Assembly (NCBI GenBank): GCA_023150455.1
Contig: JAKLKW010000028.1
Coordinates: 1,671 to 65,670, forward strand
Length of the DNA stretch: 64,000 bases
Source: Alphaproteobacteria bacterium
Lineage (GTDB): Bacteria > Pseudomonadota > Alphaproteobacteria > JAEULC01
Direction: 5' to 3'
Shown here: positions 2,873 to 49,610 of the stretch, piece after piece
Position numbering within the stretch: the stretch's first letter is position 1
Layout: each line of letters opens with the position of its first letter
Notes under the pieces: model-generated
What the model saw: the letters and a program-made list of their open reading frames with translations, nothing else
What the model was told of the DNA's origin: nothing
The model's database searches: none
Program-made: the position numbers and the translations under genes

Positions 2873-5731
2873 GTGACAACGCAGCAGACGCCGCCGCCCT
2901 TCGACATCGCGCCCATCAGCCTGGAAGAGGAGATGCGGCGCTCGTACCTCGATTACGCCATGAGCGTGATCGTGGCGCGCGCGCTGCCCGACGTGCGCGA
3001 CGGCCTCAAGCCCGTCCACCGGCGCATCCTCTACGCCATGAAAGAGGCGGGCTACGACTGGAACAAGGCGTTCCGCAAGTCGGCGCGCATCGTCGGCGAC
3101 GTGATGGGCAAGTACCACCCGCACGGCGACACGGCGATCTACGACGCCATGGTCCGCATGGCGCAGGACTTCTCCATGCGCCTGCCGCTGATCGACGGCC
3201 AGGGCAACTTCGGCTCGATGGACGGCGATCCGCCGGCGGCCATGCGCTACACCGAGGCGCGGCTCGCGCGCGCCGCCGATGCGCTGCTCGACGACATCGA
3301 CAAGGACACGGTGCAGTTCCAGCCGAACTACGACGGCACCGACAAGGAGCCGGTCGTCCTGCCGGCGCGCTTTCCCAACCTGCTCGTCAACGGCGCCGGC
3401 GGCATCGCCGTCGGCATGGCGACCAACATCCCGACCCACAACCTGGGCGAGGTGATCGACGCCTGCTGCGCCTATGTCGACAACCCCGACATCACGATCG
3501 ACGAGCTGATCGAGCGCGTGCCGGGCCCGGACTTCCCGACCGGCGGCATCATCCTGGGCTCGGTCGGCATCCGCTCCGGCTACCATCTCGGCCGCGGCTC
3601 GATCGTCATCCGTGCCCGTGCCACGGTCGAGGAGATCCGCAAGGACCGCTGGGCCATCGTCGTCACCGAGATTCCCTACCAGGTGAACAAGGCGCGCATG
3701 GTCGAGCGCATCGGCGAGCTGGTGCGCGAGAAGGTGATCGAGGGCATCGCCGACCTGCGCGACGAAAGCGACCGCGAGGGCCTGCGCGTGGTGATCGAGC
3801 TGAAGCGCGAGGCGGTGCCGGAGGTCGTGCTGAACCAGCTCTACCGCCACAGCCAGCTGCAGACCAGCTTCGGCATCAACATGCTGGCGCTGAACGGCGG
3901 CAAGCCCGAGCTGCTGGACCTCAAGTCGATCATCGCCGCCTTCGTCGCCTTCCGCGAGCAGGTGATCCGCCGCCGCACCATCTTCGAGCTGGGCAAGGCG
4001 CGCGAGCGGGCGCACGTCCTGGTCGGCCTGGCGATCGCGGTCGCCAACATCGACGAGGTCATCAAGCTGATCCGCTCCTCGCCGGACCCGGCCGACGCCA
4101 GGGCGAAGCTGGTGGCGCGCTCGTGGCCGGCGTCGACCGTGGCGCCGCTGATCGCGCTGATCGACGACCCCGGCCAGGCCATCGACAAGGAGGGCGGCTA
4201 TCGCCTCAGCGAGGCGCAGGCGCGCGCGATCCTCGATCTGCGCCTGCAGCGCCTGACCGGGCTCGAGCGCGACAGGATCGCCGAGGAGCTGGACGGGCTG
4301 GTCAAGCAGATCCGCGACTTCCTGGAGATCCTGGAATCGCGGCCCAAGCTGCTCGGCATCCTGCGCGGCGAGCTGCTGGCGATGAAGGAGCAGTTCGCCA
4401 CGCCGCGCCGCACCACGCTCGAGGCGCAGGAGGACGAGACCGACGTCGAGGACCTGATCCAGCGCGAGGACATGGTCGTCACGGTCACGCTCGGCGGCTA
4501 CATCAAGCGCGTGCCCTTGAGCGCCTACCGCGCCCAGCGCCGCGGCGGGCGCGGCCGTGCGGGCATGGCGACGCGCGAGGAGGATGCGGTCAGCCGCGTG
4601 TTCATCGCCAACACGCACGACCGCATGCTGTTCTTCTCCTCGCGCGGCATGGCCTATCAGATGAAGGTCTACCGCCTGCCGCTCGGCAACCCGCAGGCGC
4701 GCGGCAAGGCGCTGGTCAACCTGCTGCCGCTCGAGGAGGGCGAGACCATCACGACGCTGATGCCGATGCCGGAGGACGAGAAGGCGGCGACGGCGGCGCA
4801 CGTGATGTTCGCGACCTCGACCGGCAACGTCCGGCGCAACGCGCTCAGCGACTTCACCGACATCAAGGCCAACGGCAAGATCGCCATGAAGCTGGAGGAA
4901 GGCGGCGAGCGCCTGATCGCGGTGCAGCCCTGCGGCGAGGGCGACGACGTGCTGCTGGCGGCGCGCGGGGGAAAATGCATCCGCTTCCCCGTCGGCGACG
5001 TGCGCGTGTTCGCCGGCCGTACCTCGACCGGCGTGCGCGGCATCAAGCTGGCCGAGGGCGACGAGGTGATCTCGATGTCGATCCTGCGCCACGCCGACTT
5101 CACGGTCGAGGAGCGCGCGGCGTTCCTCAGGCTGCAGCGCGCCAAGCGCGGCGACACCGGCGAGCCCGAGCCCGACACGGAAGAGGCGTCGACGGCGCCG
5201 GCGGCGGTCCTGTCGCCCGAGCGCGTGGCCGAGATGGAGGCGCAGCAGGAGTTCCTGCTGGCGATCACCGAGAAGGGTTTCGGCAAGCGCAGCTCGGCCT
5301 ACGAGTACCGCGTGGCCGGCCGCGGCGGCCAGGGCATCGCCAACATCGAGGTGACCGAGCGCAACGGCCCGGTCGTCGCGACCTTCCCGGTCAAGGACAC
5401 GGACCAGATCGTGCTGGTGACCGACGGCGGCCAGATCATCCGCACGCCGGTCGACGACATCCGCGTCGCCGGGCGCAAGACCCAGGGCGTGACGGTGTTC
5501 AAGGTCGACCAGGACGAGCGCGTGGTCTCGGTCAGCCGGCTCAGCGAGGACGAGGGCAACGGCCCGAACGGTAACGGCCCGAACGGTAACGGCCCGAACG
5601 GGAACGGCCACGCCGGCAACGGCCCGAACGGTAACGGCCATGGCGGCAACGGCCTCGACGGCGGCGGCGCGAACGGAGCGGGCGACGGCGGGACGGGCAA
5701 TGGCACGGCGGGAGACGGCGATGGCGCCTAG
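2873..5731 (+). CDS. gyrA: DNA gyrase subunit A
   Basis: 952 aa with a GTG start. Motifs: [39 protein letters not shown] and the active-site region [10 protein letters not shown]. The C-terminal beta-pinwheel repeats are followed by an unusual NG-rich tail. Confidence 0.97.
5558..5662 (+). repeat. Seven tandem 15-bp units (aacggcccgaacggt and variants) encoding NGxxG pentapeptides in the GyrA tail
   Basis: Read directly: units at 5558, 5573, 5588, 5603, 5618, 5633 and 5648. Three are near-identical and four are diverged. Confidence 0.9.
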
Positions 5732-20316: not shown

Positions 20317-21318
20317 CTACATCACCTGGAAGCCGTGCTTGTACGGGTCGCGGTCGTCGACGAAGATCGTGTTGATGCCGGTGACGCGCGCCCAGCCGCC
20401 GATCGAGGGCTTGATCGCGGCGTGGTTGCCGATCGTCGTGGTGTCCTCGACGCGGCCGTGGAACAGGCTGCCGATGATGCTCTCGTGCACGAAGTCGTCG
20501 CCCTTCCTGAGCTTGCCCTTGGCGGCGAGCTGGGCCATGCGCGCGGAGGTGCCGGTGCCGCACGGGCTGCGGTCGATCGCCTTCTCGCCGTAGAACACGG
20601 CGTTGCGCGCATGCGCACCCTTGGCGCGCGGCTTGCCGGTCCACAGGATGTGGCTGACGCCCCTGATGGTCGGGTCGTCCGGGTGCTGCGGCTGGACGAC
20701 CTTGTTGAGCTCGCGCCTGAGGATCGGGCTGAGCCGGATCACGTCGCCCGCCGTCATGTCGGCGAGGTCGGTATAGTTCTTCTGCGGACCGACGATGGCG
20801 TAGAAATTGCCGCCGTAGGAGATGTCGACGACGATCTCGCCCAGGCCGGGGCAGTCGACCTTGACGTCGGTCATGGCGAGGTAGCTGGCGACGTTGTGGA
20901 TGCGCACCTCCTCGACGAAGCGCCCGTCGCGTTTCACGTAGGCGGTCACCACGCCGGCCGGCGTGTCGAGCATCAGCTTCGACGGGTCGCGCGGGTTGAC
21001 GAGGCCGTGCTCGAGCGCCGTCGTCACCGTGCCGATCGTGCCGTGGCCGCACATCGGCAGGCAGCCCGAGACCTCGATGAACAGGATGCCGACGTCGCAG
21101 TCCTCGCGCGTGGGCGGATAGAGGATCGAGCCCGACATCACGTCGTGTCCGCGCGGCTCGAACATCAGCGCCGTGCGCACCCAGTCGTAGTGCTTGAGGA
21201 AGTACTGGCGCCGCTCGCTCATCGTCCTGCCCTGGAGCTGCGGCCCGCCGCCGGCGACCACGCGCACCGGGCAGCCGCAGGTGTGTCCGTCGATGCAGAG
21301 ATAGGTGTTGGAGGCCAT
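20317..21318 (-). CDS. Proline racemase family enzyme, 4-hydroxyproline 2-epimerase-like (Cys/Cys catalytic pair)
   Basis: Trimmed to ATG 21318. Catalytic motifs LPMCGHG and DRSPCGTGTSA. 333 aa. Confidence 0.85.
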   Translation of the reverse strand: MASNTYLCIDGHTCGCPVRVVAGGGPQLQGRTMSERRQYFLKHYDWVRTALMFEPRGHDVMSGSILYPPTREDCDVGILFIEVSGCLPMCGHGTIGTVTTALEHGLVNPRDPSKLMLDTPAGVVTAYVKRDGRFVEEVRIHNVASYLAMTDVKVDCPGLGEIVVDISYGGNFYAIVGPQKNYTDLADMTAGDVIRLSPILRRELNKVVQPQHPDDPTIRGVSHILWTGKPRAKGAHARNAVFYGEKAIDRSPCGTGTSARMAQLAAKGKLRKGDDFVHESIIGSLFHGRVEDTTTIGNHAAIKPSIGGWARVTGINTIFVDDRDPYKHGFQVM

Positions 21319-22056: not shown

Positions 22057-23088
22057 TTAGACCTGCGCCCGCGGCGCGTCGCCGATGCGGAAGCCTTCCG
22101 GCAGCGGGTCGGCCGGGTCGAGCACGAAATGGTGGAAGCCGGTGATGTAGGCGCGGCCGGTAACGCGCGGCCGCACATAGGTGATGCCGTTGCGCTTCTC
22201 GGCCTTGACCGCCGCGCCGGTGAAATACGTGCCCAGCACGCCTTCGAACTTGCGCGGCTGGTCGAGGCCGATCTCGCCGCGCGTGTAGAGCAGCGCGACC
22301 CGGGCCGAGGTGCCGGTCCCGCAGGGGCTGCGGTCGAGCGAGCCGGGCGGGCAGAGGATGGTCTGCTTGTAGTCGCCGGTCGTCTTCTTCGCCGAGGTGA
22401 ACAGCACCTGGTAGCAGACGTCGATGTCCGGCCGCTCCGGATGGACGGTCTCGAGCTGCCGGCCGACGGCCGCGCGGATGCGCCGCCACGCGTCGATCAG
22501 CCTGGCGTCGTTGTGCGGCGTGAGCTCCAGCCCGAGGCGGTCGGCGTCGACGAAGGCGTAGAAATCGCCGCCATAGGCGATGCTGACCTCGGTCTTGCCG
22601 ATGCCCTCGACCTCGATGGCGGCGCGGTCGTGCAGCACGAAGCTGTCGACGTTGTCGAAGCCGACCGACTGCACCTGGCCGTCCTTCACCGCCACGTCGC
22701 AGACGACCTGGCCGGCCGGCGTGTCGAACATCACCGTGGTGACGGGCTCGCGCCGCGCGACCATGCCGGTGGCGACGACGGTCGTGGCCGTGCCGATGAT
22801 GCAGTGGCCGCACATGGGCACGTATTCGTCCTGCTCCATGATGACGGCGGCGAAGTCGCTGTCCTTGCGCTCGGGCGGCAGCAGCAGGACCGAGCACATC
22901 ATGCCGCTGCCGCGCGGCTCGAAGTTGAGCAGGCGGCGCAGCCCGTCGTCGTTGGCCATCAGCCAGGCGCGCTTTTCCAACAGGCTCGTGCCCGGCGGCA
23001 CCTTGACGCCGCCGACGATGACGCGGGTCGGGTTGCCCTCGGTATGCGAGTCGACCGTGTGGATGCTGCGGGTGAAGGCCGTGCTCAC
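22057..23088 (-). CDS. Second proline racemase family enzyme (Cys/Cys pair; racemase/epimerase type)
   Basis: GTG start at 23088 is preceded by GGAGGA and overlaps the upstream stop (GTGA). Motifs VPMCGHC and DRSPCGTGTSA. 343 aa. Confidence 0.85.
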   Translation of the reverse strand: MSTAFTRSIHTVDSHTEGNPTRVIVGGVKVPPGTSLLEKRAWLMANDDGLRRLLNFEPRGSGMMCSVLLLPPERKDSDFAAVIMEQDEYVPMCGHCIIGTATTVVATGMVARREPVTTVMFDTPAGQVVCDVAVKDGQVQSVGFDNVDSFVLHDRAAIEVEGIGKTEVSIAYGGDFYAFVDADRLGLELTPHNDARLIDAWRRIRAAVGRQLETVHPERPDIDVCYQVLFTSAKKTTGDYKQTILCPPGSLDRSPCGTGTSARVALLYTRGEIGLDQPRKFEGVLGTYFTGAAVKAEKRNGITYVRPRVTGRAYITGFHHFVLDPADPLPEGFRIGDAPRAQV

Positions 23089-33421: not shown

Positions 33422-34174
<753 letters not shown>

Positions 34175-37100: not shown

Positions 37101-38447
37101 ATGCGCTACATGCCGCATACCGAGGCCGACCGCCGCGCCATGCTGCAGGCGATCGGCGTGCCTTCGGTCGACAGCCTGTTCCGCGACGTGCCGGAGGCGG
37201 CGCGCCTCAAGGGGCCGGTCGACCTGCCGCCGCACCAGGGCGAGCTGGAGGTCGAGCGCGCCATCGCCGCGATGGCGGCGCGCAACCTCGGCACGGCCTC
37301 GGCGCCGAGCTTCCTCGGCGCCGGCGCCTATCGCCATCACGTGCCGGCCGCGGTCGACCACCTGATCCAGCGCGGCGAGTTCCTGACCTCCTACACGCCC
37401 TATCAGCCCGAAGTGTCGCAGGGCACGCTGCAGTACCTGTTCGAGTTCCAGACCCAGGTCGCGCTGCTGACCGGCATGGAGGTCGCGAACGCGTCGATGT
37501 ACGACGGCGCGTCGGCGGCGTCCGAGGCCGTGGTGATGGCGACGCGCGTGACGAAGCGCGATCGCGCCGTGCTGTCGGGCAACCTGCATCCGCACTATCG
37601 CGAGGTCGTCGCCACCAATGCCGGGCTCCTCGGCATCGCGCTCGACGCGGCGCCCCCCTGCCCGGACGGGGCGGAGGACCTGGCCCGGCGCATCGACGAC
37701 AAGACCGCCTGCGTCGTCGTGCAGAACCCCGGCTTCTTCGGCCAAATACGCGACTTCACGAAGCTCGCCGAGGCGTGCCGAGCCAGGGGCGCGCTGCTGA
37801 TCGTCGCGGTGACCGAAGTCGTGTCGCTCGGCGCGCTCAAGCCGCCGGGCGAGATGGGCGCCGACATCGTCGTGGCGGAAGGCCAGTCGCTCGGCAATCC
37901 GCTCGGCTTCGGCGGCCCCTATGTCGGCCTGTTCGCGACGCGCGAGAAGTTCCTCCGGCAGATGCCGGGCCGGCTTTGCGGCCAGACCGTCGACGCCGAC
38001 GGGCAGCGCGGCTTCGTGCTGACGCTGTCGACCCGCGAGCAGCACATCCGCCGCGAGAAGGCGACCAGCAACATCTGCACGAACTCGGGACTTTGCGCAC
38101 TCGCCTTCACCATCCACCTGACGCTCCTGGGCGAGGCCGGCTTCCGCCGCCTGGCCGCGCTCAATCACGCGCGCGCGGCGCAGCTGGCCGAGCGCCTGGA
38201 GAAGACCAGGGGAGTCGAAGTGGTCGGCGACGGTTTCTTCAACGAGTTCGCGGTCCGTCTCGAGGGACGCAAGGCGGTGGACGTGGTCGAGCAATTGGCA
38301 GGCAAGCGCATCCTCGCCGGAGTGCCGGTGGCGCGACTCTATCCCGACCGGCCGGAGCTGGCCGACCTGCTGCTGGTGGCGGCGACGGAGCTGACGACCG
38401 ATCGGGACATCGATGCGCTGGCGACGGCGCTGGAAGGGGCACGCTGA
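37101..38447 (+). CDS. gcvPA: Glycine dehydrogenase (decarboxylating) subunit 1
   Basis: [20 protein letters not shown]... 448 aa, lying in the long frame 35532..38447. Confidence 0.95.
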
Positions 38448-39970
38448 TGAGCACGAACCCGCACGGCACGATCACCGGCAATCGCGGCCTGCAGCTGGAA
38501 GAGCCGCTCATCTTCGAGCAGGGCGCGGACGGACGCTCGGGCGTCGACCTGCCCGAGCCGCCCAAGGTGAAGAGCCGCCTCGGCGGGCTGGAGCGCCAGG
38601 GCGCGATCGGCCTGCCGGGCCTGAGCGAGCCGCAGGCGATCCGGCACTACACGCGCTTGAGCCAGAAGAACTACGCCATCGACGCCGGCATGTACCCGCT
38701 CGGCTCCTGCACCATGAAGCACAACCCGCGGCTCAACGAGAAGTTGGTGCGCCTGGGCGGCCTCGCCGACCTGCATCCGCTGCAGCCGGTTTCGACCGTG
38801 CAGGGCGCGCTGGAGCTGATCGACACGCTGGCGCATTGGCTGAAGACGCTGACCGGCATGCCGGCGGTCGCCATGTCGCCCGCTGCTGGAGCTCAGGGAG
38901 AATTATGCGGCGTGATGGCGATGAAGGCGGCGCACGACGCCAAGGGCAACTCGAAGCGCGTGCGCATCCTGGTGCCCGAGTCGGCGCACGGCACCAACCC
39001 GGCCACGGCGGCGGCCTGCGGCTACCAGGTCGAGGCGATCCCCGCCGACGCGCGCGGCCGCGTCGACCTCGCCGCGCTCAAGGCCAGGCTCGGCCCCGAC
39101 GTCGCCGGCATCATGATCACCAACCCGAACACCTGCGGCCTGTTCGAGAACGACATGATCGAGATCGGCCGCGCGGTGCATGCGGCCGGCGGCTTCTTCT
39201 ACTGCGACGGCGCCAACTTCAACGCCATCGTCGGCCGCGTGCGGCCGGGCGACCTCGGCATCGACTGCATGCACATCAACCTGCACAAGACCTTCTCGAC
39301 GCCGCACGGCGGCGGCGGGCCGGGCAGCGGGCCGGTGGTGCTGTCGGCGGCGCTGGCGCCCTACGCGCCCTTGCCCTGGGTTGTTCACGGGAAGGACGGG
39401 TTTGCGCTCGTCGAGCAGACGGAAGGCACGGCCAGGTCGGCCACCGGGCGCCTCAAGGCCTTCCACGGCCAGATGGGCATGTTCGTGCGCGCGCTCGCCT
39501 ACATGATGAGCCATGGCGCCGACGGCCTGCGCCAGGCCGCGGGCGACGCGGTGCTCAACGCCAACTACGTGCTGGCGCGCTTGAGCGACGTGATGTCGGC
39601 GCCGTTCCCGGGCCCATGCATGCACGAGGCGCTGTTCGACGACCGCTTCCTCAACGGCTCGGGCGTCAGCACGCTCGACATCGCCAAGGCGATGATCGAC
39701 GAGGGCTTCCATCCCATGACCATGTATTTCCCGCTGGTCGTGCACGGCGCCTTCCTGATCGAGCCGACCGAGAGCGAGAGCAAGGCCTCGCTCGACCAGT
39801 TCATCGCGGTCATGCGCGGACTGGCCGAGCGCGTGAAGAAGGGCGACACGGACCACTTCCACCAGGCGCCGCGCTACACGCCGCGCCGCCGCCTCGACGA
39901 GACGCAGGCCGCGCGCAAGCCGGTGCTGCGCTGGCGCCCGCCCGCGCCGGACAAGCAGGCGGCGGAGTAG
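38447..39970 (+). CDS. gcvPB: Glycine dehydrogenase (decarboxylating) subunit 2
   Basis: ATG overlaps the gcvPA stop (ATGA). GSCTMKHNP and the PLP-lysine region NLHKTFSTPHGGGGPG. Confidence 0.95.
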   Translation: MSTNPHGTITGNRGLQLEEPLIFEQGADGRSGVDLPEPPKVKSRLGGLERQGAIGLPGLSEPQAIRHYTRLSQKNYAIDAGMYPLGSCTMKHNPRLNEKLVRLGGLADLHPLQPVSTVQGALELIDTLAHWLKTLTGMPAVAMSPAAGAQGELCGVMAMKAAHDAKGNSKRVRILVPESAHGTNPATAAACGYQVEAIPADARGRVDLAALKARLGPDVAGIMITNPNTCGLFENDMIEIGRAVHAAGGFFYCDGANFNAIVGRVRPGDLGIDCMHINLHKTFSTPHGGGGPGSGPVVLSAALAPYAPLPWVVHGKDGFALVEQTEGTARSATGRLKAFHGQMGMFVRALAYMMSHGADGLRQAAGDAVLNANYVLARLSDVMSAPFPGPCMHEALFDDRFLNGSGVSTLDIAKAMIDEGFHPMTMYFPLVVHGAFLIEPTESESKASLDQFIAVMRGLAERVKKGDTDHFHQAPRYTPRRRLDETQAARKPVLRWRPPAPDKQAAE

Positions 39971-39975
39971 GGGGC
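39890..39975 (+). repeat. Direct repeat copy A (last ~86 bp of gcvPB including the stop)
   Basis: About 80/86 identical to 40671..40756 by manual alignment. Confidence 0.9.
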
Positions 39976-40029
39976 GAACGGATAAAGCAATTTGCTTGAC
40001 GTGTATAATGCAAATTGCAATATGAGGCC

Positions 40030-40287
40030 ATGTGGTCGGTCACCTACACGGCCGAGGCGCTCGACGCGTTGAGCAGAATTGATCGGATCGTCGCCAAGCG
40101 CATACGGGCCAAGGTACTGGCCTTGGCGCAGGATCCGAGAGCGCCAAGCAACAACGTCAAGAAGCTGACCGGCGTCGAGGGCTATCGGCTGCGGGTAGGC
40201 GGCTGGCGCGTGATCTATACGTTGAAACAACAGGTCTTGACTGTCGTCGTGGTCAGGGTCGGGCATCGAAGCGAGGTCTACCAATGA
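40030..40287 (+). CDS. RelE/ParE-family toxin
   Basis: MWSVTYTAEALDALSRIDRIVAKRIRAKVLALAQDPRAP...KLTGVEGYRLRVGGWRVIYTL...VVVVRVGHRSEVY is the canonical RelE/ParE signature. A TATAAT box lies at 40004..40009. Confidence 0.85.
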   Translation: MWSVTYTAEALDALSRIDRIVAKRIRAKVLALAQDPRAPSNNVKKLTGVEGYRLRVGGWRVIYTLKQQVLTVVVVRVGHRSEVYQ

Positions 40288-40655
40288 GCAGACAGATCAT
40301 TACCCAGGACGGCAAACCGGCCTTCGTCGTGATCCCGATCGAGGAGTGGCGTCGTATCGAGGCGACGCTGGAGGATCGCGCCGACGCAGCTTCCGTGCGT
40401 GCATTCCTGAAGCATCCGACCGAGACGTTTCCGGACTCGGTGGTGGCGGCGATCCTGGATGGCGCGCATCCGCTCAAGGCGTTGCGGGAGCATCGCGGTA
40501 TGACCCAAGCCGAGCTTGCGAAGGCCTCCGGCACAAGCTCGGTTTACGTTTCGCAGATCGAGCGCGGCGGGCGCCGTGCCGGTCGTAGGCTGCGCGCGAA
40601 GCTTGGCAAGGCGCTGCGCGTCGAGCCCGAGGTGTTGGACCGCGCCGACGACTGA
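40284..40655 (+). CDS. Antitoxin with an N-terminal Phd-like segment and a C-terminal XRE helix-turn-helix
   Basis: ATGA overlap with the toxin. GKPAFVVIPIEEWRRIE, then LREHRGMTQAELAKASGTSSVYVSQIERG. Confidence 0.8.
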   Translation: MSRQIITQDGKPAFVVIPIEEWRRIEATLEDRADAASVRAFLKHPTETFPDSVVAAILDGAHPLKALREHRGMTQAELAKASGTSSVYVSQIERGGRRAGRRLRAKLGKALRVEPEVLDRADD

Positions 40656-40670
40656 GCGCGGACGCGCCGG

Positions 40671-40756
40671 CGCCTCGACGAGACGCCGGCCGCGCGCAAG
40701 CCCGTCCCGCGCTGGCGCCCGCCGGCGCCGGACAAGCAGGCGGCGGAGCAGGGGGC
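40671..40756 (+). repeat. Direct repeat copy B (diverged duplicate of the gcvPB 3' end, TAG changed to CAG)
   Basis: See copy A. It ends exactly at the vapC stop codon (40757). Confidence 0.9.
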
Positions 40757-41173
40757 CTATTTCGACTCGAAGGGGTTCAGCACGCGGACGCCAGATTTTT
40801 CAAGGCCGGCAGCGTCGCGCGTGACCAACGTCATGTCGTGGACGATGGCCGTCGCCGCCAGCAAGCCGTCGACCGGCGGCAAGGGATCTGGCGCAGCGAT
40901 CCTCCCCCATTCCTCCGCGACGGCACGGTCGACGATGAGCACACGGCCGGCAAATCTGGTGATCAGGGTTTCGAGCCAGCGTTCCAGGTTCCATGCTTGT
41001 GTGGGGTCGCTACGCCGAAGTCGCTCGATGCCGTTCCTGAGCTCGCCGATGACCAGCACGCTGGTGAAGACATCGGGCACGTACCGGGATTGAAACCATC
41101 GAGAAACCGCAGGATGGCACCGGACGCCCTTGCGCACTTCCGAGAGGACGTTGGTGTCGAGCAGGTACCTCAC
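40757..41173 (-). CDS. vapC: VapC toxin (PIN-domain ribonuclease)
   Basis: MRYLLDTNVLSE... with acidic PIN residues (D6, E43-like, D...TRD). 138 aa. Confidence 0.9.
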   Translation of the reverse strand: MRYLLDTNVLSEVRKGVRCHPAVSRWFQSRYVPDVFTSVLVIGELRNGIERLRRSDPTQAWNLERWLETLITRFAGRVLIVDRAVAEEWGRIAAPDPLPPVDGLLAATAIVHDMTLVTRDAAGLEKSGVRVLNPFESK

Positions 41174-41176
41174 CGT

Positions 41177-41479
41177 TCAATCGAGGTCGACAGGACGCGA
41201 GGGCCTGCGATCGCGCTGGAGCATCGAGTCGAACGCGTCATCGGGAAGATCGCAGGTAATCAACTTCATGAGTTCGGCCCCCGTAAGCACCTCGCCGGTG
41301 GCGGCGCGTAGTTGTCCGCGCAACAAATCACTGTCGGGCGTTTCTTCCCGCAAACGGCGCGCTACAGCGCGAATCAGCGCTGCATCCGCGCCGGGTACTT
41401 GCACTTCGACGCGCTCGAGCCCCTTGCGCTCTTGGCGTCGGCGGTGATCGGCTACCGCCTTCCGCGGGGTCTTTGCCAA
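41177..41479 (-). CDS. Putative VapB-type antitoxin (TTG start)
   Basis: TTG at 41479 lies 7 nt after GGAG. ~100 aa: MAKTPRKAVADHRRRQERKGLERVEVQVPGADAALIRAVARRL... The stop is 3 nt before the vapC start. The family call is uncertain. Confidence 0.55.
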   Translation of the reverse strand: MAKTPRKAVADHRRRQERKGLERVEVQVPGADAALIRAVARRLREETPDSDLLRGQLRAATGEVLTGAELMKLITCDLPDDAFDSMLQRDRRPSRPVDLD

Positions 41480-41637: not shown

Positions 41638-42450
41638 ATGGACCCAGTCACGCTCGCCAAGGCGGCGCTGCTTGGCGTGGTCGAGGGGCTGACCGAGTTC
41701 ATTCCGGTTTCGTCGACGGGGCACCTGATCCTGCTGGTCGACTTGCTGGGGTTCCAGGGGCCGCCCGGCAAGGTGTTCGAGATCGCGATCCAGCTCGGCG
41801 CGATCCTGGCGATCTGCTGGGTGTACCGCCGGCGGCTCGTCGATACCGCCGCCGGGCTGTTCCGCATGGACGAGCCGTCCTGGCAGTTCACCTACAACAT
41901 CGCCGTCGCCTTCGTGCCCGCGCTGGTGCTGGGCGTCCTGTTGCACGGCTTCATCAAGCGGGTGCTGTTCTCGCCCTGGGTCGTGTGCGCGACTCTGATC
42001 CTCGGCGCCTTCGCCATCATCGTCATCGAGCGCATGCGGCCCGCGACGCGCTACGCCGAGGTCGACCAGTTCCGCCCCTGGCTCGCGTTCCGCATCGGCC
42101 TGTGCCAGGCGGTCGCCATGATCCCGGGCGTCAGCCGCTCGGGCGCGACGATCATGGGCGCGCTGCTGCTGGGGGCGAGCCGCAAGGCCGCCACCGAGTT
42201 CTCGTTCTTCCTGGCGATCCCGACCATGCTCGGCGCCACGGTCTACGACCTGTACAAGAACCGCGACCATCTGGCGGGCGACGACGCGCTGGTGATCGCC
42301 GTCGGCTTCATCGCGGCCTTCGTTTCGGGCATGCTGGTGGTGCGGTGGCTGGTCGGCTTCGTGGGGCGGCGCGGATTCGTGCCGTTCGCGCTCTACCGCA
42401 TCGCGCTCGGCCTTGCGATGCTGGCCGTGCTGATTCTGCGCGGCGGGTAG
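41638..42450 (+). CDS. uppP: Undecaprenyl-diphosphate phosphatase
   Basis: GVVEGLTEFIPVSSTGHLIL and PGVSRSGATI are the BacA/UppP signature motifs. Confidence 0.93.
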   Translation: MDPVTLAKAALLGVVEGLTEFIPVSSTGHLILLVDLLGFQGPPGKVFEIAIQLGAILAICWVYRRRLVDTAAGLFRMDEPSWQFTYNIAVAFVPALVLGVLLHGFIKRVLFSPWVVCATLILGAFAIIVIERMRPATRYAEVDQFRPWLAFRIGLCQAVAMIPGVSRSGATIMGALLLGASRKAATEFSFFLAIPTMLGATVYDLYKNRDHLAGDDALVIAVGFIAAFVSGMLVVRWLVGFVGRRGFVPFALYRIALGLAMLAVLILRGG

Positions 42451-47804: not shown

Positions 47805-49610
47805 CTACAGCACGAAATCCTGGCTGGTGAGCTGGGCCGTCGCGACGCCGTAGATCGTGATGCTGTCATGCGCCGTCAGCTGCACGACGGCGTTGCCGGA
47901 GCCGTCGTCGGCGATCTGTTGCTGCAGCTCGGCGAAGTCGTCGAAGTGATAGGCCCGCAGGTCGATCACGTCGCGGTCGCCGATCGCCTGGCCGAAGTCC
48001 CAGATCGTGTCGTCGCCGGAATGGCGCGTGAAGACGAACGTGTCGTCGCCGGTGCCCGTGCCGAAGCCGAAATGCGACCCGTCGCCGACGAGGCCGTCGT
48101 CGCCGCGTCCGCCGTTGAAGACGTCGTCCCCGTCGGCGCCCCAGATGTCGTCGTTGCCGCGCGACCCGGTGAAGGCGTAGTCCTGCCCGCCCTGGTCGGC
48201 GTAGAAGCCGACGGCGATGGTCGTGTCGTCGAAATCGTTGTGATGGTGCACCAGCTCGTTGGTGAACGAGCCGAGCTGGTAGATGCCGTAGCCGGCATTC
48301 GCGATCGTGTTCCCCTCGGCGACCGGCGCGTCCGCGTCGATGAAGGCGATGCCCGCGTCGGCGGAATTGCCGAAGGAGTCGAGCTCCATGGTGATCCGGT
48401 TGTCGGTGACGACGACGTTGTCGGAGTCGATCACCAGGATGCCGGTCGCGCTGAAGCTGTCGGGGCCGTAGCCGATGCCGCTGATCGTGTTGTCGTCGAT
48501 CTCGCCGGTCGCGCCGCCGCTGACCTGGATGCCGTTCTGCGCGGGCGAGCCCAGCGGCTGCAGCCCGCCGCCGACGATGGTGTTGTCCTCGGCCTCGACC
48601 GTCAGGCCGGCGCCGACGAACACCATGCCGGTCTTCTGGAAGTCGGTGACCGTGCTGTCGCCGACCTCGATGCTCCGGTCCGCGCCGTCGCGGTTGGCCA
48701 CCACGATGCCGTTGCCGCGCTGGATGCCGGACAGGCTGCCGTCGAGATTGTAGGGGTCGCGGATGCCCGTGACGGTGACGTCCTCGACCGCTCCGCCCGC
48801 GTTCAGGAAGTAGATGCCGTTGAAGTCGGCCGCGCCGTAGGTCGTGCTCAGGTGGTTGCCGTTGCCCAGCCCGTCGACGACCAGGTCGCTGATCGAAACC
48901 TGGCCGCCGTTGACGCCGATGATGGCGTTCTTGCTCGGCGTGCCCGAGCCGGCGTCCTGGATATTGGCGGACAGCAGGGCCGGCGCCACGATATGCGTGG
49001 CATCGCCCTGGCCCTGGATGGACAGGACCTTGCCGGTGATCGTCACCTGTTCGACGTAGGTGCCGGCGGCGACCAGCACCACGTCGCCGTCCGCGGCACC
49101 GGCGGCGTCGACGCCGCTCTGCACCGTGGTGAGCTCGCTGGCGCCGCCGCCGACCAGGATGACGTCGTGGTCGTCGAACCGAAGGATCTCGACGCCGCTC
49201 AGCTTGTCGTGGCCGTCCCGGCCGATGACCGCGACCGTGCCGTCCGTCTTGAAGACGATCCGGTAGTCGCACGCGTCGCCGGAGAACAGCGCGACATCGA
49301 TGCCGGCCCCGCCGTCGATCCTGTCGCTTCCCGAGCCGCCGTGCAGCACGTCGTCGCCGGCGCCTCCGTTCAGCGTGTCCGCGCCCCTGTTGCCGAAGAG
49401 GAGGTCGGCGCCGCCGCCGCCATCCAGGGAATCGTCGCCGTTGCCGCCGTGGACGGTGTCGTTGTCGTCCCCGCCGTCGAGGACGTCGTGCCCGTTGCCG
49501 CCGAACAGGATGTCGTCGCCGCCCAGACCTTGAATGGTATCGCTCTTGTGGCCGCCGATCAGCAGGTCGTCGCCGGCGGTGCCGGAAACCGGACTATTCG
49601 AATGCGACAT
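47805..49610 (-). CDS. RTX (hemolysin-type Ca-binding repeat) protein with a central right-handed beta-helix domain
   Basis: GGxGxD nonapeptides occur at both the N-terminus (GGNGHDVLDGGDDNDTVHGGNGDD...) and the C-terminus (GNDDIWGADGDDVFNGGRGDD). The central region reads like parallel beta-helix repeats (NTIVGG..NGIQVSGG..NTISG). 601 aa. Confidence 0.85.
   Translation of the reverse strand: MSHSNSPVSGTAGDDLLIGGHKSDTIQGLGGDDILFGGNGHDVLDGGDDNDTVHGGNGDDSLDGGGGADLLFGNRGADTLNGGAGDDVLHGGSGSDRIDGGAGIDVALFSGDACDYRIVFKTDGTVAVIGRDGHDKLSGVEILRFDDHDVILVGGGASELTTVQSGVDAAGAADGDVVLVAAGTYVEQVTITGKVLSIQGQGDATHIVAPALLSANIQDAGSGTPSKNAIIGVNGGQVSISDLVVDGLGNGNHLSTTYGAADFNGIYFLNAGGAVEDVTVTGIRDPYNLDGSLSGIQRGNGIVVANRDGADRSIEVGDSTVTDFQKTGMVFVGAGLTVEAEDNTIVGGGLQPLGSPAQNGIQVSGGATGEIDDNTISGIGYGPDSFSATGILVIDSDNVVVTDNRITMELDSFGNSADAGIAFIDADAPVAEGNTIANAGYGIYQLGSFTNELVHHHNDFDDTTIAVGFYADQGGQDYAFTGSRGNDDIWGADGDDVFNGGRGDDGLVGDGSHFGFGTGTGDDTFVFTRHSGDDTIWDFGQAIGDRDVIDLRAYHFDDFAELQQQIADDGSGNAVVQLTAHDSITIYGVATAQLTSQDFVL

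What the first reader, a model, noticed from the sequence alone, without database searches (positions are those of the whole stretch)
39890..40756. relE-xre toxin-antitoxin cassette bracketed by ~86-bp direct repeats derived from the gcvPB 3' end
The last ~86 bp of gcvPB (39890..39975, including TAG) recur at 40671..40756 with about 6 substitutions (TAG becomes CAG). Weaker similarity extends ~15 bp further upstream. The 695 bp between the copies contain exactly a promoter (TATAAT 40004), two short palindromes (AGCAATTTGCT at 39987..39997 and TGCAAATTGCA at 40010..40020), relE and the xre antitoxin. Copy B abuts the vapC stop codon. The ancestral arrangement was therefore probably gcvPB convergent with vapBC, and the relE-xre unit arrived with, or generated, a long duplication. 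This footprint is much longer than classical transposition target duplications. It suggests recombination-mediated capture of a TA cassette.
Basis: seen in the sequence. Interest (0 to 1): 0.65.

Follow-up and report, generated by a model that had tools for sequence, protein, structure and literature searches.

The report
Toxin-antitoxin insertion that duplicated gcvPB's end
A small, horizontally acquired toxin-antitoxin gene pair was inserted between the glycine-cleavage gene gcvPB and a neighbouring vapBC pair, duplicating the last 94 bases of the gcvPB region; this is a clear recombination footprint but not a new kind of mobile element.

Summary
Window 39882-39975 recurs at 40663-40756: 94 nt, 87 identical, blastn E 2e-35, and no other copy in the window. 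The first copy is the working end of gcvPB. The second is a dead stub with TAG changed to CAG, and it abuts the vapC stop codon. The 687 bp between them are one compact toxin-first cassette: two operator palindromes around a TATAAT, a RelE/ParE toxin and a Phd-N/HTH antitoxin. The same cassette, 78-83% identical in DNA, sits in unrelated contexts in other Alphaproteobacteria without flanking repeats. A relative has the empty site, with the gcvPB stop 3 nt from a convergent vapC (L100). A ~95% identical sister strain has both copies but has lost the toxin gene. Comparing the copies across strains indicates a near-perfect original duplication, after which the stub decayed. A second relative (L099) carries different toxin-antitoxin cargo after gcvPB, followed by another gcvPB-tail stub with a different breakpoint. 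There is no integrase, transposase, terminal repeat or attC-like fold. The best reading is homology-assisted recombination, most likely single-crossover integration of a circularised fragment, with the toxin-antitoxin pair possibly disfavouring loss of the insert. Interest is moderate to low.

The parts
38447..39970 (+). gcvPB (glycine dehydrogenase subunit 2). Its last 86 coding nt plus the stop codon lie inside repeat copy A.
   Evidence: Pfam GcvP2_C, GDC-P and Aminotran_5. 69-81% aa identity to GcvPB of Rhodospirillales-like genomes. The C-terminal motif TPRRRLDET.AARKPVLRW is conserved across 80 loci.
39882..39975 (+). Repeat copy A: the functional 3' end of gcvPB (88 nt up to and including TAG) plus 5 nt of intergenic spacer (GGGGC).
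   Evidence: It is in frame with gcvPB. It matches the outgroup tails (L099, L100) at 4 of the 7 sites where A and B differ.
39976..40662 (+). Inserted toxin-antitoxin cassette (687 bp). Positions 39982-40651 are conserved as a DNA unit in other genomes. 6-7 nt at each end (GAACGG / GCGCGGA) are junction filler.
   Evidence: blastn gives 78-83% identity over cassette nt 7-676 to L101, L102 and L103, with unrelated flanks. G+C is 0.595-0.625 over 39900-40399, rising to about 0.66 by 40400-40599, against about 0.70 background.
39986..40019 (+). Regulatory region: palindromes AGCAATTTGCT (39986-39996) and TGCAAATTGCA (40009-40019), which are mutually inverted, flanking TATAAT (40004-40009). Probable operator and -10 element.
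   Evidence: Read directly from the sequence and listed as inverted repeat I12. The block is nearly invariant in four homologous cassettes (alignment A1). The consensus scan found no canonical -35/-10 pair. A metatranscriptome contig covers 40010-40271 exactly.
40030..40287 (+). Toxin gene, RelE/ParE superfamily (85 aa).
   Evidence: Pfam ParE_toxin PF05016, E 6e-12. NCBIfam RelE_StbE TIGR02385, 29.2 bits against a cutoff of 27.9.
40284..40655 (+). Antitoxin gene (123 aa): an N-terminal Phd/YefM-like segment plus a C-terminal HTH_3 (Xre) domain. It overlaps the toxin stop by 4 nt (ATGA).
   Evidence: Pfam HTH_3 at 1e-11 and PhdYeFM_antitox/RelB-like at residues 3-32. NCBIfam phd_fam. 292 homologues at E<=1e-10; the 119 best listed besides the window's own protein are 73-88% identical, and those inspected sit next to a ParE_toxin gene.
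40663..40756 (+). Repeat copy B: a displaced, non-functional gcvPB 3' stub with TAG changed to CAG. It directly abuts the vapC stop codon, as the native tail does in empty-site relatives.
   Evidence: Its junction with vapC is homologous to the gcvPB-vapC junction of L100. It carries 4 derived substitutions, one of them the loss of the stop codon. The sister-strain stub shows further independent changes.
40757..41173 (-). vapC (PIN-domain toxin), convergent with gcvPB. Part of the older resident vapBC module.
   Evidence: Pfam PIN, 1.5e-16. 80% aa homologue in the same position in the empty-site locus L100.
41177..41479 (-). Putative vapB-type antitoxin (100 aa, TTG start, no family match).
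   Evidence: Lies 3 nt upstream of vapC. It is called as a 100-aa gene in Logan contigs and is conserved in L100. No Pfam or NCBIfam hit.

Best explanation
History (well supported). An ancestor of this uncultured activated-sludge alphaproteobacterium had gcvPB and vapC convergent, with their stop codons a few nt apart. A 687-bp horizontally acquired cassette, carrying a toxin-first RelE/ParE toxin and a Phd-N/HTH antitoxin with its own operator and promoter, was inserted there in a single event. That event duplicated the last 88 nt of gcvPB, stop codon included, plus the spacer nt that follow. The upstream copy (A) stayed the working end of gcvPB. The downstream copy (B) became a neutral stub that has since lost its stop codon and gathered substitutions.

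Mechanism (inferred). The insertion was made by the host's general recombination machinery, not by a dedicated recombinase. The most likely route starts with a short DNA fragment carrying the cassette joined to a piece of the gcvPB tail. That fragment circularised and integrated by a RecA-type single crossover within the about 94-bp homology. This route necessarily leaves the homologous segment as a direct repeat on both sides of the foreign DNA.

Persistence (inferred). The repeat-flanked insert should normally be lost by recombination between the repeats. The toxin-antitoxin pair may have slowed that loss through post-segregational killing, at least until the toxin decayed, as it has in the sister strain. 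Two alternatives were not tested: that deletion between 94-bp repeats is simply rare, and that the antitoxin is kept for another reason. The same locus in a relative shows an independent event of the same type with other toxin-antitoxin cargo. The conserved gcvPB 3' end therefore appears to act as a recurrent homology anchor for a variable toxin-antitoxin islet.
For: - The repeat is real, unique in the window and highly significant.
- Empty sites exist in relatives: L100, an X9 contig and a JGI contig layout.
- The cassette is a discrete conserved unit found elsewhere with unrelated flanks and without direct repeats, so the repeat is not part of the cassette.
- G+C drops across both toxin-antitoxin modules.
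- The insert holds only two ORFs, so there is no recombinase gene. It has no terminal inverted repeats. The tail does not fold better than shuffled sequence, with z from -0.02 to +1.98.
- The sister strain (about 95% nt identity) shares the right junction and both copies. Its copy B is A-like at repeat positions 25 and 46, and its copy A has the ancestral G at position 62. At the strain split A and B therefore differed at 4 sites or fewer. Since then B has gained about 2 changes per lineage, while A has gained one synonymous change in the window lineage. This fits a near-perfect initial duplication followed by neutral decay of B (with outgroups).
- The duplicated segment includes the lineage-specific spacer GGGGC, where relatives have GGC. 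This argues that both copies come from the same or a very close lineage.
- In L099, gcvPB is followed by HicA/HicB-like and GNAT/TacA modules and then by a second gcvPB-tail stub (E 5e-7). That stub starts about 22 nt further upstream than copy B. It resembles the L100 allele (31/35) more than L099's own tail (33/41). This is an independent event with a different breakpoint, which is not what a site-specific enzyme would produce.
- Experimental precedent: in E. coli, linear DNA with one-sided homology mostly circularises and integrates by a recA-dependent single crossover, giving 109-950 bp duplications of the homologous segment (PMC3240628).
Against: - No circular intermediate, donor configuration or excision product was observed. 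Assembled contigs cannot show rare forms.
- The route requires a fragment that already joined the cassette to a gcvPB tail. No such donor arrangement (cassette directly after gcvPB without a duplication) was found.
- 94 bp is at the low end of the duplications reported experimentally (109-950 bp).
- Homology-facilitated illegitimate recombination, or a break-repair or template-switch event, would leave the same final structure. The data cannot separate these routes.
- Stabilisation by the toxin-antitoxin pair is inference only. The sister strain has kept the insert and both repeats despite losing the toxin gene.
- The L099 stub is only 45 nt long because the contig ends there.
Confidence: 0.55

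Rival explanations
1. Homology-facilitated illegitimate recombination, or displacement of the Rhs/T6SS orphan type. A linear fragment from a close relative carried the 3' part of gcvPB followed by the cassette. It recombined homologously within gcvPB on its left. Its non-homologous right end was joined illegitimately into the recipient's gcvPB at -88. Copy A is then donor DNA, and copy B is the displaced native tail.
For: - The architecture (new 3' end, new cargo, displaced old 3' stub) matches the model proposed for orphan arrays in T6SS and Rhs loci (PMC5361080).
- Copy B is contiguous with vapC exactly as the native tail is in L100.
- At repeat position 41, B shares C with L100 and A shares G with L099, which could reflect two alleles.
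- The L099 stub resembles a different allele (L100-like) from L099's functional tail.
- The right junction is GC-rich, as is typical of microhomology joins.
Against: - HFIR usually yields an insertion coupled with a deletion, not a duplication (PMC3240628).
- Copy A carries the same lineage-specific spacer GGGGC as copy B, so the donor would have to be nearly identical to the recipient.
- At the strain split, A and B differed at 4 sites or fewer.
- No donor with a gcvPB-cassette adjacency was found.
Confidence: 0.22
2. Remnant or satellite of a site-specific integrative element. A tyrosine-recombinase element uses the gcvPB 3' end as attB and carries a replacement tail in attP, as phage 21 and e14 do at icd and as islands do at tRNA genes. 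The integrase would either have been deleted or would act in trans, and the two repeat copies would be attL and attR.
For: - Direct repeats of tens to more than 100 bp that restore the 3' end of the target gene are typical of such elements (established knowledge; not tested here).
- A second insertion at the same gene end occurs in L099.
Against: - There is no recombinase gene in the 687-bp insert, nor in the 1.6-kb L099 cargo.
- The insert boundaries coincide within 7 nt with the promoter-to-stop toxin-antitoxin unit seen elsewhere, leaving no room for decayed element DNA.
- The breakpoints differ between the two events: about -88 in the window and about -110 or more in L099.
- The same cassette in other genomes has no repeats.
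- There is no identical core flanked by diverged arms. The mismatches are spread across the repeat, and most are recent changes in B.
Confidence: 0.08
3. In-situ target duplication during break repair or replication. Either staggered nicks about 94 nt apart at the convergent gcvPB/vapC junction were filled in around captured foreign DNA, or a microhomology-mediated template switch copied the cassette and re-entered the template 94 nt upstream.
For: - The inferred original duplication was near-perfect and includes the local spacer.
- 6-7 nt of unassigned filler lie at each junction (GAACGG / GCGCGGA).
- A convergent gene junction is a plausible fragile site (inference).
Against: - I found no precedent in the papers searched for 94-bp fill-in duplications around captured DNA in bacteria.
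- This route does not by itself explain a second event at the same gene end in L099.
Confidence: 0.12
4. The similarity is due to chance, GC-rich low complexity or a chimeric assembly.
For: The genome is 69% G+C, and the tail is rich in CGC/GCG codons.
Against: - E is 2e-35, against a next-best hit of 1.7e-4 in the same window.
- The structure was assembled independently in many runs and studies.
- It is present in a diverged sister strain.
- The stub retains the codon-wise pattern of gcvPB.
Confidence: 0.01

Closest known systems
Single-crossover (Campbell-type) integration of circularised linear DNA with one-sided homology (Amarir-Bouhram, Goin & Petit 2011, PLoS One, PMC3240628)
   Same: Foreign DNA ends up flanked by a direct duplication of the chromosomal segment it carried. 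No element-encoded recombinase is needed. The duplication length is set by the fragment ends and therefore varies.
   Different: That work is a laboratory result in E. coli with duplications of 109-950 bp. Here the duplication is 94 bp, in a natural population, and old enough for the downstream copy to have decayed. RecA dependence and the circular intermediate have not been shown here.
Orphan 3'-end / immunity arrays at Rhs, CDI and T6SS effector loci (HFIR displacement model; Kirchberger et al. 2017, PMC5361080)
   Same: A conserved upstream gene serves as the homology anchor. Incoming toxin-plus-protector modules displace the old 3' end downstream, leaving stubs. The process recurs at one locus with different cargo.
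   Different: There the anchor gene is itself the toxin gene, and the displaced stubs carry immunity genes. Here the anchor is a housekeeping metabolic gene, the cargo are self-contained type II toxin-antitoxin modules, and the stub has no function.
Integrative elements that restore the 3' end of their target gene (phage 21 / e14 at icd; tRNA-gene islands)
   Same: A long direct repeat is derived from the 3' end of the target gene. The upstream copy keeps the gene intact and the downstream copy is a pseudo-end.
   Different: Those elements encode an integrase and recombine at a fixed core. Here there is no integrase, the insert is only a toxin-antitoxin unit, and the breakpoints differ between the two events seen. 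This comparison rests on my own knowledge of those systems, not on a test made here.
higBA-type (toxin-first) RelE/ParE-superfamily type II toxin-antitoxin modules with an HTH (Xre) antitoxin
   Same: A small RelE/ParE-fold toxin gene lies upstream of, and overlaps, an HTH_3 antitoxin gene. Palindromic operators overlap the -10 element. The family is widespread and horizontally mobile.
   Different: The antitoxin has an extra N-terminal Phd/YefM- or RelB-like segment, which is not a feature of classical HigA. Toxin activity and target have not been tested.
Toxin-antitoxin cassettes of chromosomal integrons
   Same: Compact toxin-antitoxin units act as stabilising cargo in arrays of acquired DNA that are bracketed by repeats.
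   Different: There is no attC-like structure (fold z-scores from about 0 to +2). No intI was seen in the region inspected. The repeats are a fragment of a housekeeping gene.

Membership tests
Type II toxin-antitoxin, RelE/ParE superfamily toxin | The toxin matches RelE/ParE family models above the curated cut-offs. | tested here: met
   PF05016 at 46.4 bits (cut-off 23). TIGR02385 RelE_StbE at 29.2 bits (cut-off 27.9, so only marginally above).
Type II toxin-antitoxin, RelE/ParE superfamily toxin | An adjacent, co-oriented, overlapping small antitoxin gene with a DNA-binding domain. | tested here: met
   The genes overlap by 4 nt. The antitoxin has HTH_3 at 1e-11 and a Phd-like N-terminus. 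The pairing is conserved in L101-L106.
Type II toxin-antitoxin, RelE/ParE superfamily toxin | Autoregulatory operator palindromes at the promoter. | tested here: met
   Two 11-nt palindromes flank TATAAT and are nearly invariant in four homologous cassettes. Binding was not tested.
Type II toxin-antitoxin, RelE/ParE superfamily toxin | The toxin inhibits growth and the cognate antitoxin neutralises it. | not testable with these tools
   Needs expression assays.
Site-specific integrative element (attL/attR from the 3' end of the target gene) | The element encodes, or sits next to, a tyrosine or serine recombinase. | tested here: not met
   The insert holds only the two toxin-antitoxin ORFs. The neighbours are gcvPB, vapBC and uppP. 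The L099 cargo is HicA/HicB-like plus GNAT/TacA.
Site-specific integrative element (attL/attR from the 3' end of the target gene) | The same crossover position in independent insertions. | tested here: not met
   Copy B starts at -88 from the end of the gcvPB stop codon. The L099 stub starts about 22 nt further upstream. This rests on only two events, and one stub is cut off by the contig end.
Transposon / insertion sequence with target-site duplication | A transposase, terminal inverted repeats and a short fixed-length duplication. | tested here: not met
   There is no transposase ORF. There are no terminal inverted repeats at 39976/40662. The duplication is 94 bp. Homologous cassettes elsewhere lack any duplication.
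Integron gene cassette | An attC recombination site that folds as an imperfect hairpin, plus intI/attI. | tested here: not met
   The repeat and its complement fold no better than shuffled sequence, with z +1.98, +0.82 and +0.34. No intI was seen among the neighbours inspected. The cassette has its own promoter.
Campbell-type single-crossover insertion of a homology-bearing circle | Foreign DNA flanked by a direct duplication of a chromosomal segment, with the empty site holding one copy. | tested here: met
Campbell-type single-crossover insertion of a homology-bearing circle | RecA dependence and the existence of the circular intermediate. | not testable with these tools
   Contig data cannot show rare circles. 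Genetic tests are needed.
HFIR / orphan-stub displacement | The upstream copy and the adjoining gene segment are donor-derived, giving a mosaic. | tested here: inconclusive
   Position 41 and the L099 stub hint at two alleles. Against that, A and B share the lineage-specific spacer and differed at 4 sites or fewer at the strain split.

The most novel reading that the evidence does not exclude
The 3' end of gcvPB in this clade may be a dedicated landing site for integrase-less toxin-antitoxin cassettes. In that reading the cassettes move as small circles made of the cassette plus a gcvPB tail, in effect mobile elements that use a borrowed housekeeping-gene fragment as their attachment site. They would cycle between strains by excision through the direct repeats and re-integration. 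The toxin-antitoxin pair would enforce retention. Repeated rounds would build an array of toxin-antitoxin modules separated by gcvPB stubs.
Probability: 0.1. Interest if true: 0.7.

Novelty: new variant of a known kind. Interest (0 to 1): 0.38.

Why it matters
Chromosomal toxin-antitoxin modules are known to be mobile, but how a bare two-gene unit without any recombinase enters a chromosome is rarely visible. This locus preserves the footprint, and the related states are all available in public data:
- an empty site;
- a filled site with a 94-bp duplication of a housekeeping gene end;
- a decaying stub;
- a sister strain that then lost the toxin;
- a relative with a second, independent event carrying other toxin-antitoxin cargo.

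Together these give a natural example of homology-assisted capture of toxin-antitoxin cassettes. They also extend the 'orphan 3' stub' logic of Rhs/T6SS loci to an ordinary metabolic gene. The locus offers a simple test of whether addiction modules protect repeat-flanked insertions from deletion. It does not reveal a new enzyme or a new class of element.

Tried and rejected
- **GTDB species scan with GcvPB.** The best hit was only 81% aa identical. None of the 80 loci had the toxin-antitoxin genes or uppP downstream. None had a convincing tail duplicate. The weak L056 hit (E 1.4e-4) has no small cassette between the copies and was dropped as chance.
- **Protein search with the GcvPB C-terminus.** It returned only fragments of 82% identity or less, and the top hit P0001 looks like a chimeric assembly. 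It was of no use for finding empty sites.
- **Metagenome scan with the shared 24-mer.** It gave a single locus, L099, which turned out to be informative.
- **Extending L099 beyond its end with read layouts.** Both assemblies stop at the same base. This is compatible with a repeat breaking the assembly graph, but no extra sequence was gained.
- **Excision or empty-site joints in the window strain's own runs.** No joint skipping 781 nt was seen in runs X1, X3, X9 or X12. Contigs drop rare variants, so this is not evidence of absence.
- **attC-like or hairpin explanation for the repeat.** The terminal GCCGCCGCC/GGCGGCGG complementarity exists, but the folds are no better than shuffled sequence. 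Rejected.
- **Canonical sigma-70 promoter scan.** No -35/-10 pair was found. TTGAC at 39996 is too close to TATAAT to be its -35 element.
- **Plasmid origin.** Only weak HTH-domain hits (71-75%) on three Azospirillum plasmids.
- **Literature.** Four full-text searches found no description of toxin-antitoxin cassettes bracketed by duplicated ends of housekeeping genes. Prudhomme et al. 2002 is not held in the library.


Full report
**1. The observation**

The repeat finder reports one two-copy family of 94 nt at 39882-39975 and 40663-40756, with 93% identity and spacing 781 (the same result in a whole-window scan). A blastn search of 39850-40000 against the 64-kb window gives E 1.9e-35 for the second copy. 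The next best hit anywhere is E 1.7e-4, in a window of 69% G+C. The match is therefore not compositional.

The seven mismatches lie at repeat positions 8, 25, 41, 44, 46, 62 and 87. The last one turns the gcvPB stop TAG into CAG. Upstream of 39882/40663 the alignment falls to chance level.

The finding's coordinates are a slightly short version of the real repeat, and its palindrome coordinates are off by one base. Everything else it describes is present.

**2. Gene content**

| Coordinates | Strand | Feature | Evidence |
|---|---|---|---|
| 38447-39970 | + | gcvPB, following gcvT, gcvH and gcvPA | GcvP2_C, GDC-P |
| 40030-40287 | + | 85-aa RelE/ParE-superfamily toxin | PF05016, E 6e-12; TIGR02385 just above its cut-off |
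| 40284-40655 | + | 123-aa antitoxin, overlapping the toxin by 4 nt; N-terminal Phd/RelB-like segment and C-terminal HTH_3 domain | |
| 40757-41173 | - | PIN-domain vapC; its stop codon directly follows copy B | |
| 41177-41479 | - | 100-aa vapB-like gene with no family match | |
| 41638-42450 | + | uppP/BacA | |

G+C is reduced across both toxin-antitoxin modules, against about 0.70 in the flanking genes. It is lowest, 0.59-0.63, over the toxin gene and over vapBC.

Upstream of the toxin gene, two 11-nt palindromes are inverted copies of each other and flank TATAAT. This block is almost invariant in homologous cassettes from other genomes, which marks it as the operator and promoter. The simple consensus scan finds no canonical -35/-10 pair. 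An activated-sludge metatranscriptome contig matches 40010-40271 exactly. This is weak evidence that the toxin gene is transcribed.

**3. The cassette is a discrete imported unit, and the repeat is not part of it**

The antitoxin has 292 homologues at E<=1e-10. The 119 best listed besides the window's own protein are 73-88% identical. In the loci fetched, the DNA from the left palindrome to the antitoxin stop (window 39982-40651) aligns at 78-83% identity. This holds for a Logan contig (L101), an NCBI MAG contig (L102) and Stellaceae MAGs (L103-L106), where the cassette lies downstream of a uracil-DNA glycosylase gene. The flanks in these loci are unrelated, and no direct repeats bracket the cassette.

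The insert in the window is thus the bare promoter-to-stop toxin-antitoxin unit plus 6-7 nt at each side. The 94-nt repeat is a property of this insertion event, not of the cassette.

**4. Empty and alternative sites in relatives**

No species representative is close: the best GcvPB match is 81% aa identical, and synteny is not kept. Closer relatives were found in metagenomes.

- **L100** (Logan contig; gcvPB tail 88% nt, vapC 80% aa) reads ...GGCGGCGGAG TAG GGC TTA..., which is the gcvPB stop, three bases, then the stop of a convergent vapC, followed by vapB. This is an empty site.
- **A 599-nt contig in run X9** (gcvPB about 90% identical) runs from the gcvPB tail straight into a sequence that translates, on the other strand, as a VapC-like C-terminus.
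- **A JGI contig holding a 74% VapC homologue** has the layout BacA/vapB/vapC followed by a convergent cut ORF 2 nt after vapC (no DNA available).

The junction of copy B with vapC in the window is homologous to the native gcvPB-vapC junction of L100.

**5. A sister strain dates the event and polarises the differences**

Contigs from three other studies (runs X15, X16, X20; about 95% nt identity) carry both repeat copies and the same right junction (...GACGACTGAGCGCGGA | CGCGCC...). They lack 39982-40247, which is the promoter and about the first 73 codons of the toxin gene. The insertion therefore predates the split of the two strains, and the sister strain later lost the toxin.

| Repeat position(s) | State in the strains | Reading |
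|---|---|---|
| 8, 41, 44, 62, 87 | The sister's copy B equals the window's copy B | Present in B before the split |
| 25, 46 | The sister's copy B has the copy-A state | Changed in the window's B after the split |
| 67, 92 | Changed only in the sister's copy B | Changed in the sister's B after the split |
| 62 | The sister's copy A has G, as in copy B and both outgroups | The window's C is a recent synonymous change in A |

With L099 and L100 as outgroups:
- copy B is derived at positions 8, 44, 46 and 87;
- copy A is derived only at position 62;
- position 41 is polymorphic among relatives;
- position 25 differs in every sequence.

At the strain split, A and B therefore differed at four sites at most. 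Since then the stub has gained about two changes per lineage, while the coding copy has gained one silent change in the window lineage. This is what a near-perfect original duplication followed by neutral decay of the stub would give.

Both copies also include the spacer GGGGC after the stop codon, where relatives have GGC. This points to a local or very closely related source for both.

**6. A second, independent event**

L099 is a soil metagenome contig whose gcvPB 3' end is 90% identical over 575 nt. Its gcvPB has the same tail, but the sequence diverges right after TAGGG into:
- a HicB-like (DUF1902) gene and a truncated HicA gene;
- a GNAT toxin and a TacA antitoxin on the other strand;
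- at the contig end, a second partial gcvPB tail at 2170-2210, with E 5e-7 against its own tail.

This stub reads codon-wise as TPRLTPRRRLGEA. It matches the L100 allele (31/35) better than L099's own tail (33/41). It begins about 22 nt further upstream in gcvPB than the window's copy B. Two assemblies both stop at the same base. This is compatible with the stub becoming identical to the first copy there, but no further sequence could be obtained.

In this clade the gcvPB 3' end has therefore been duplicated at least twice, in association with different toxin-antitoxin cargo and at different breakpoints.

**7. Mechanism**

- **Site-specific integration** is unlikely. There is no recombinase in either cargo, the insert boundaries are those of the bare toxin-antitoxin unit, the breakpoints differ, and there is no identical core.
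- **Transposition** is unlikely. There is no transposase and there are no terminal inverted repeats. The duplication is 94 bp, and the same cassette elsewhere has no duplication.
- **An integron-type site** is unlikely. The repeat folds no better than shuffled sequence.
- **What remains is host recombination.** In E. coli, linear DNA with homology at one end was mostly circularised and then integrated by a recA-dependent single crossover. This left duplications of 109-950 bp of the homologous segment around the foreign DNA. True homology-facilitated illegitimate recombination was much rarer and typically gave insertion-deletions (PMC3240628).

A 781-bp circle made of the cassette plus the gcvPB tail, integrating into an empty site, would give exactly the structure seen. 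I take this as the most likely route (confidence about 0.55).

HFIR with displacement of the native tail is the main rival (about 0.22). It is the model proposed for orphan stubs at T6SS and Rhs loci (PMC5361080). It is weakly favoured by the allele pattern of the L099 stub and by position 41. It is disfavoured by the shared spacer and by the near identity of A and B at the strain split.

A break-repair or template-switch duplication (about 0.12) and a decayed or trans-mobilised integrative element (about 0.08) cannot be excluded.

That the toxin-antitoxin pair slowed repeat-mediated loss of the insert is an inference from what addiction modules are known to do. It was not tested here, and the sister strain has kept the insert without the toxin gene.

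**8. Comparison with what is known, and novelty**

The cassette is an ordinary member of a widespread family of toxin-first (higBA-like order) RelE/ParE-Xre modules. Its only peculiarity is the Phd-like N-terminus of the antitoxin.

The footprint is unusual for a toxin-antitoxin locus: four full-text searches found no description of one. It is, however, explained by known recombination routes, and it parallels the orphan 3' stubs of Rhs, CDI and T6SS loci.

I rate it a new variant of a known kind, of moderate to low interest. It is a well-preserved natural series running from empty site, through filled site and decaying stub, to loss of the toxin. It makes the capture mechanism and the stabilising role of the toxin-antitoxin pair directly testable.

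Noticed in passing
window 39982-40247 (contigs of runs X15, X16, X20): A sister strain of about 95% identity, seen in biofilm and sludge metagenomes, lacks exactly the promoter/operator and about the first 73 codons of the toxin gene. It keeps the antitoxin gene and both gcvPB-tail copies, so it carries an orphan antitoxin that could only be transcribed by read-through from gcvPB. The left end of the deletion coincides within 1-2 nt with the left edge of the conserved cassette.
   Followed up: partly
L107:4950-5372, L108, L109:970-1393: Stellaceae genomes carry an orphan antitoxin of the same family. Homology to the cassette begins at the equivalent of window ~40247-40250, almost the same right breakpoint as in the sister strain. 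It is preceded by TTGTATAAT, with an acetyltransferase gene where the toxin would be. Related genomes (L103-L106) have the full pair at the same UDG-linked locus. Toxin loss with a recurrent breakpoint is unexplained.
   Followed up: partly
L099:634-1949: Between gcvPB and the second tail stub, this relative carries a HicB-like (DUF1902) gene, a HicA gene truncated to 46 aa, and a GNAT-toxin/TacA pair on the other strand. The gcvPB-downstream region is thus a variable toxin-antitoxin islet in this clade.
   Followed up: partly
JGI contig of P0122 (sample 3300078620; no DNA available): A VapC homologue of 82% identity is followed 5 nt later by a complete convergent 119-aa ORF with no Pfam hit. 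This is neither the empty-site layout nor the window layout. It may be a third configuration of the same site.
   Followed up: no
window 40010-40271 (run X13, metatranscriptome): An RNA-seq contig matches the toxin gene exactly and starts 1 nt after the TATAAT. This suggests the cassette is transcribed in activated sludge. A contig end is not a mapped 5' end.
   Followed up: no
whole window; The organism has no close species representative: the best GcvPB match is 81% aa identical, to Rhodospirillales-like MAGs. Near-identical sequence is found mainly in activated-sludge metagenomes, with small shares of the sampled words in biofilm and sludge runs. The source contig is about 223 kb.
   Followed up: partly
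window 33538-33723 and 5535-5698: There are two coding-type tandem repeat tracts. One is a GGC/GGN-rich tract with 9-12 nt periodicity. The other is a 15-nt repeat (AACGGCCCGAACGGT-like, 8 copies).
   Followed up: no
window 49297-49575 (and 48097-48159): A degenerate repeat with 27-nt periodicity is rich in GTCGTCGCCG. On the opposite strand it would encode nonapeptide repeats rich in Gly and Asp (RTX-like calcium-binding repeats?).
   Followed up: no
window 20527-21191 vs 22288-22952: Several collinear matches of 72-81% identity at a constant offset of 1761 nt indicate two adjacent paralogous genes.
   Followed up: no
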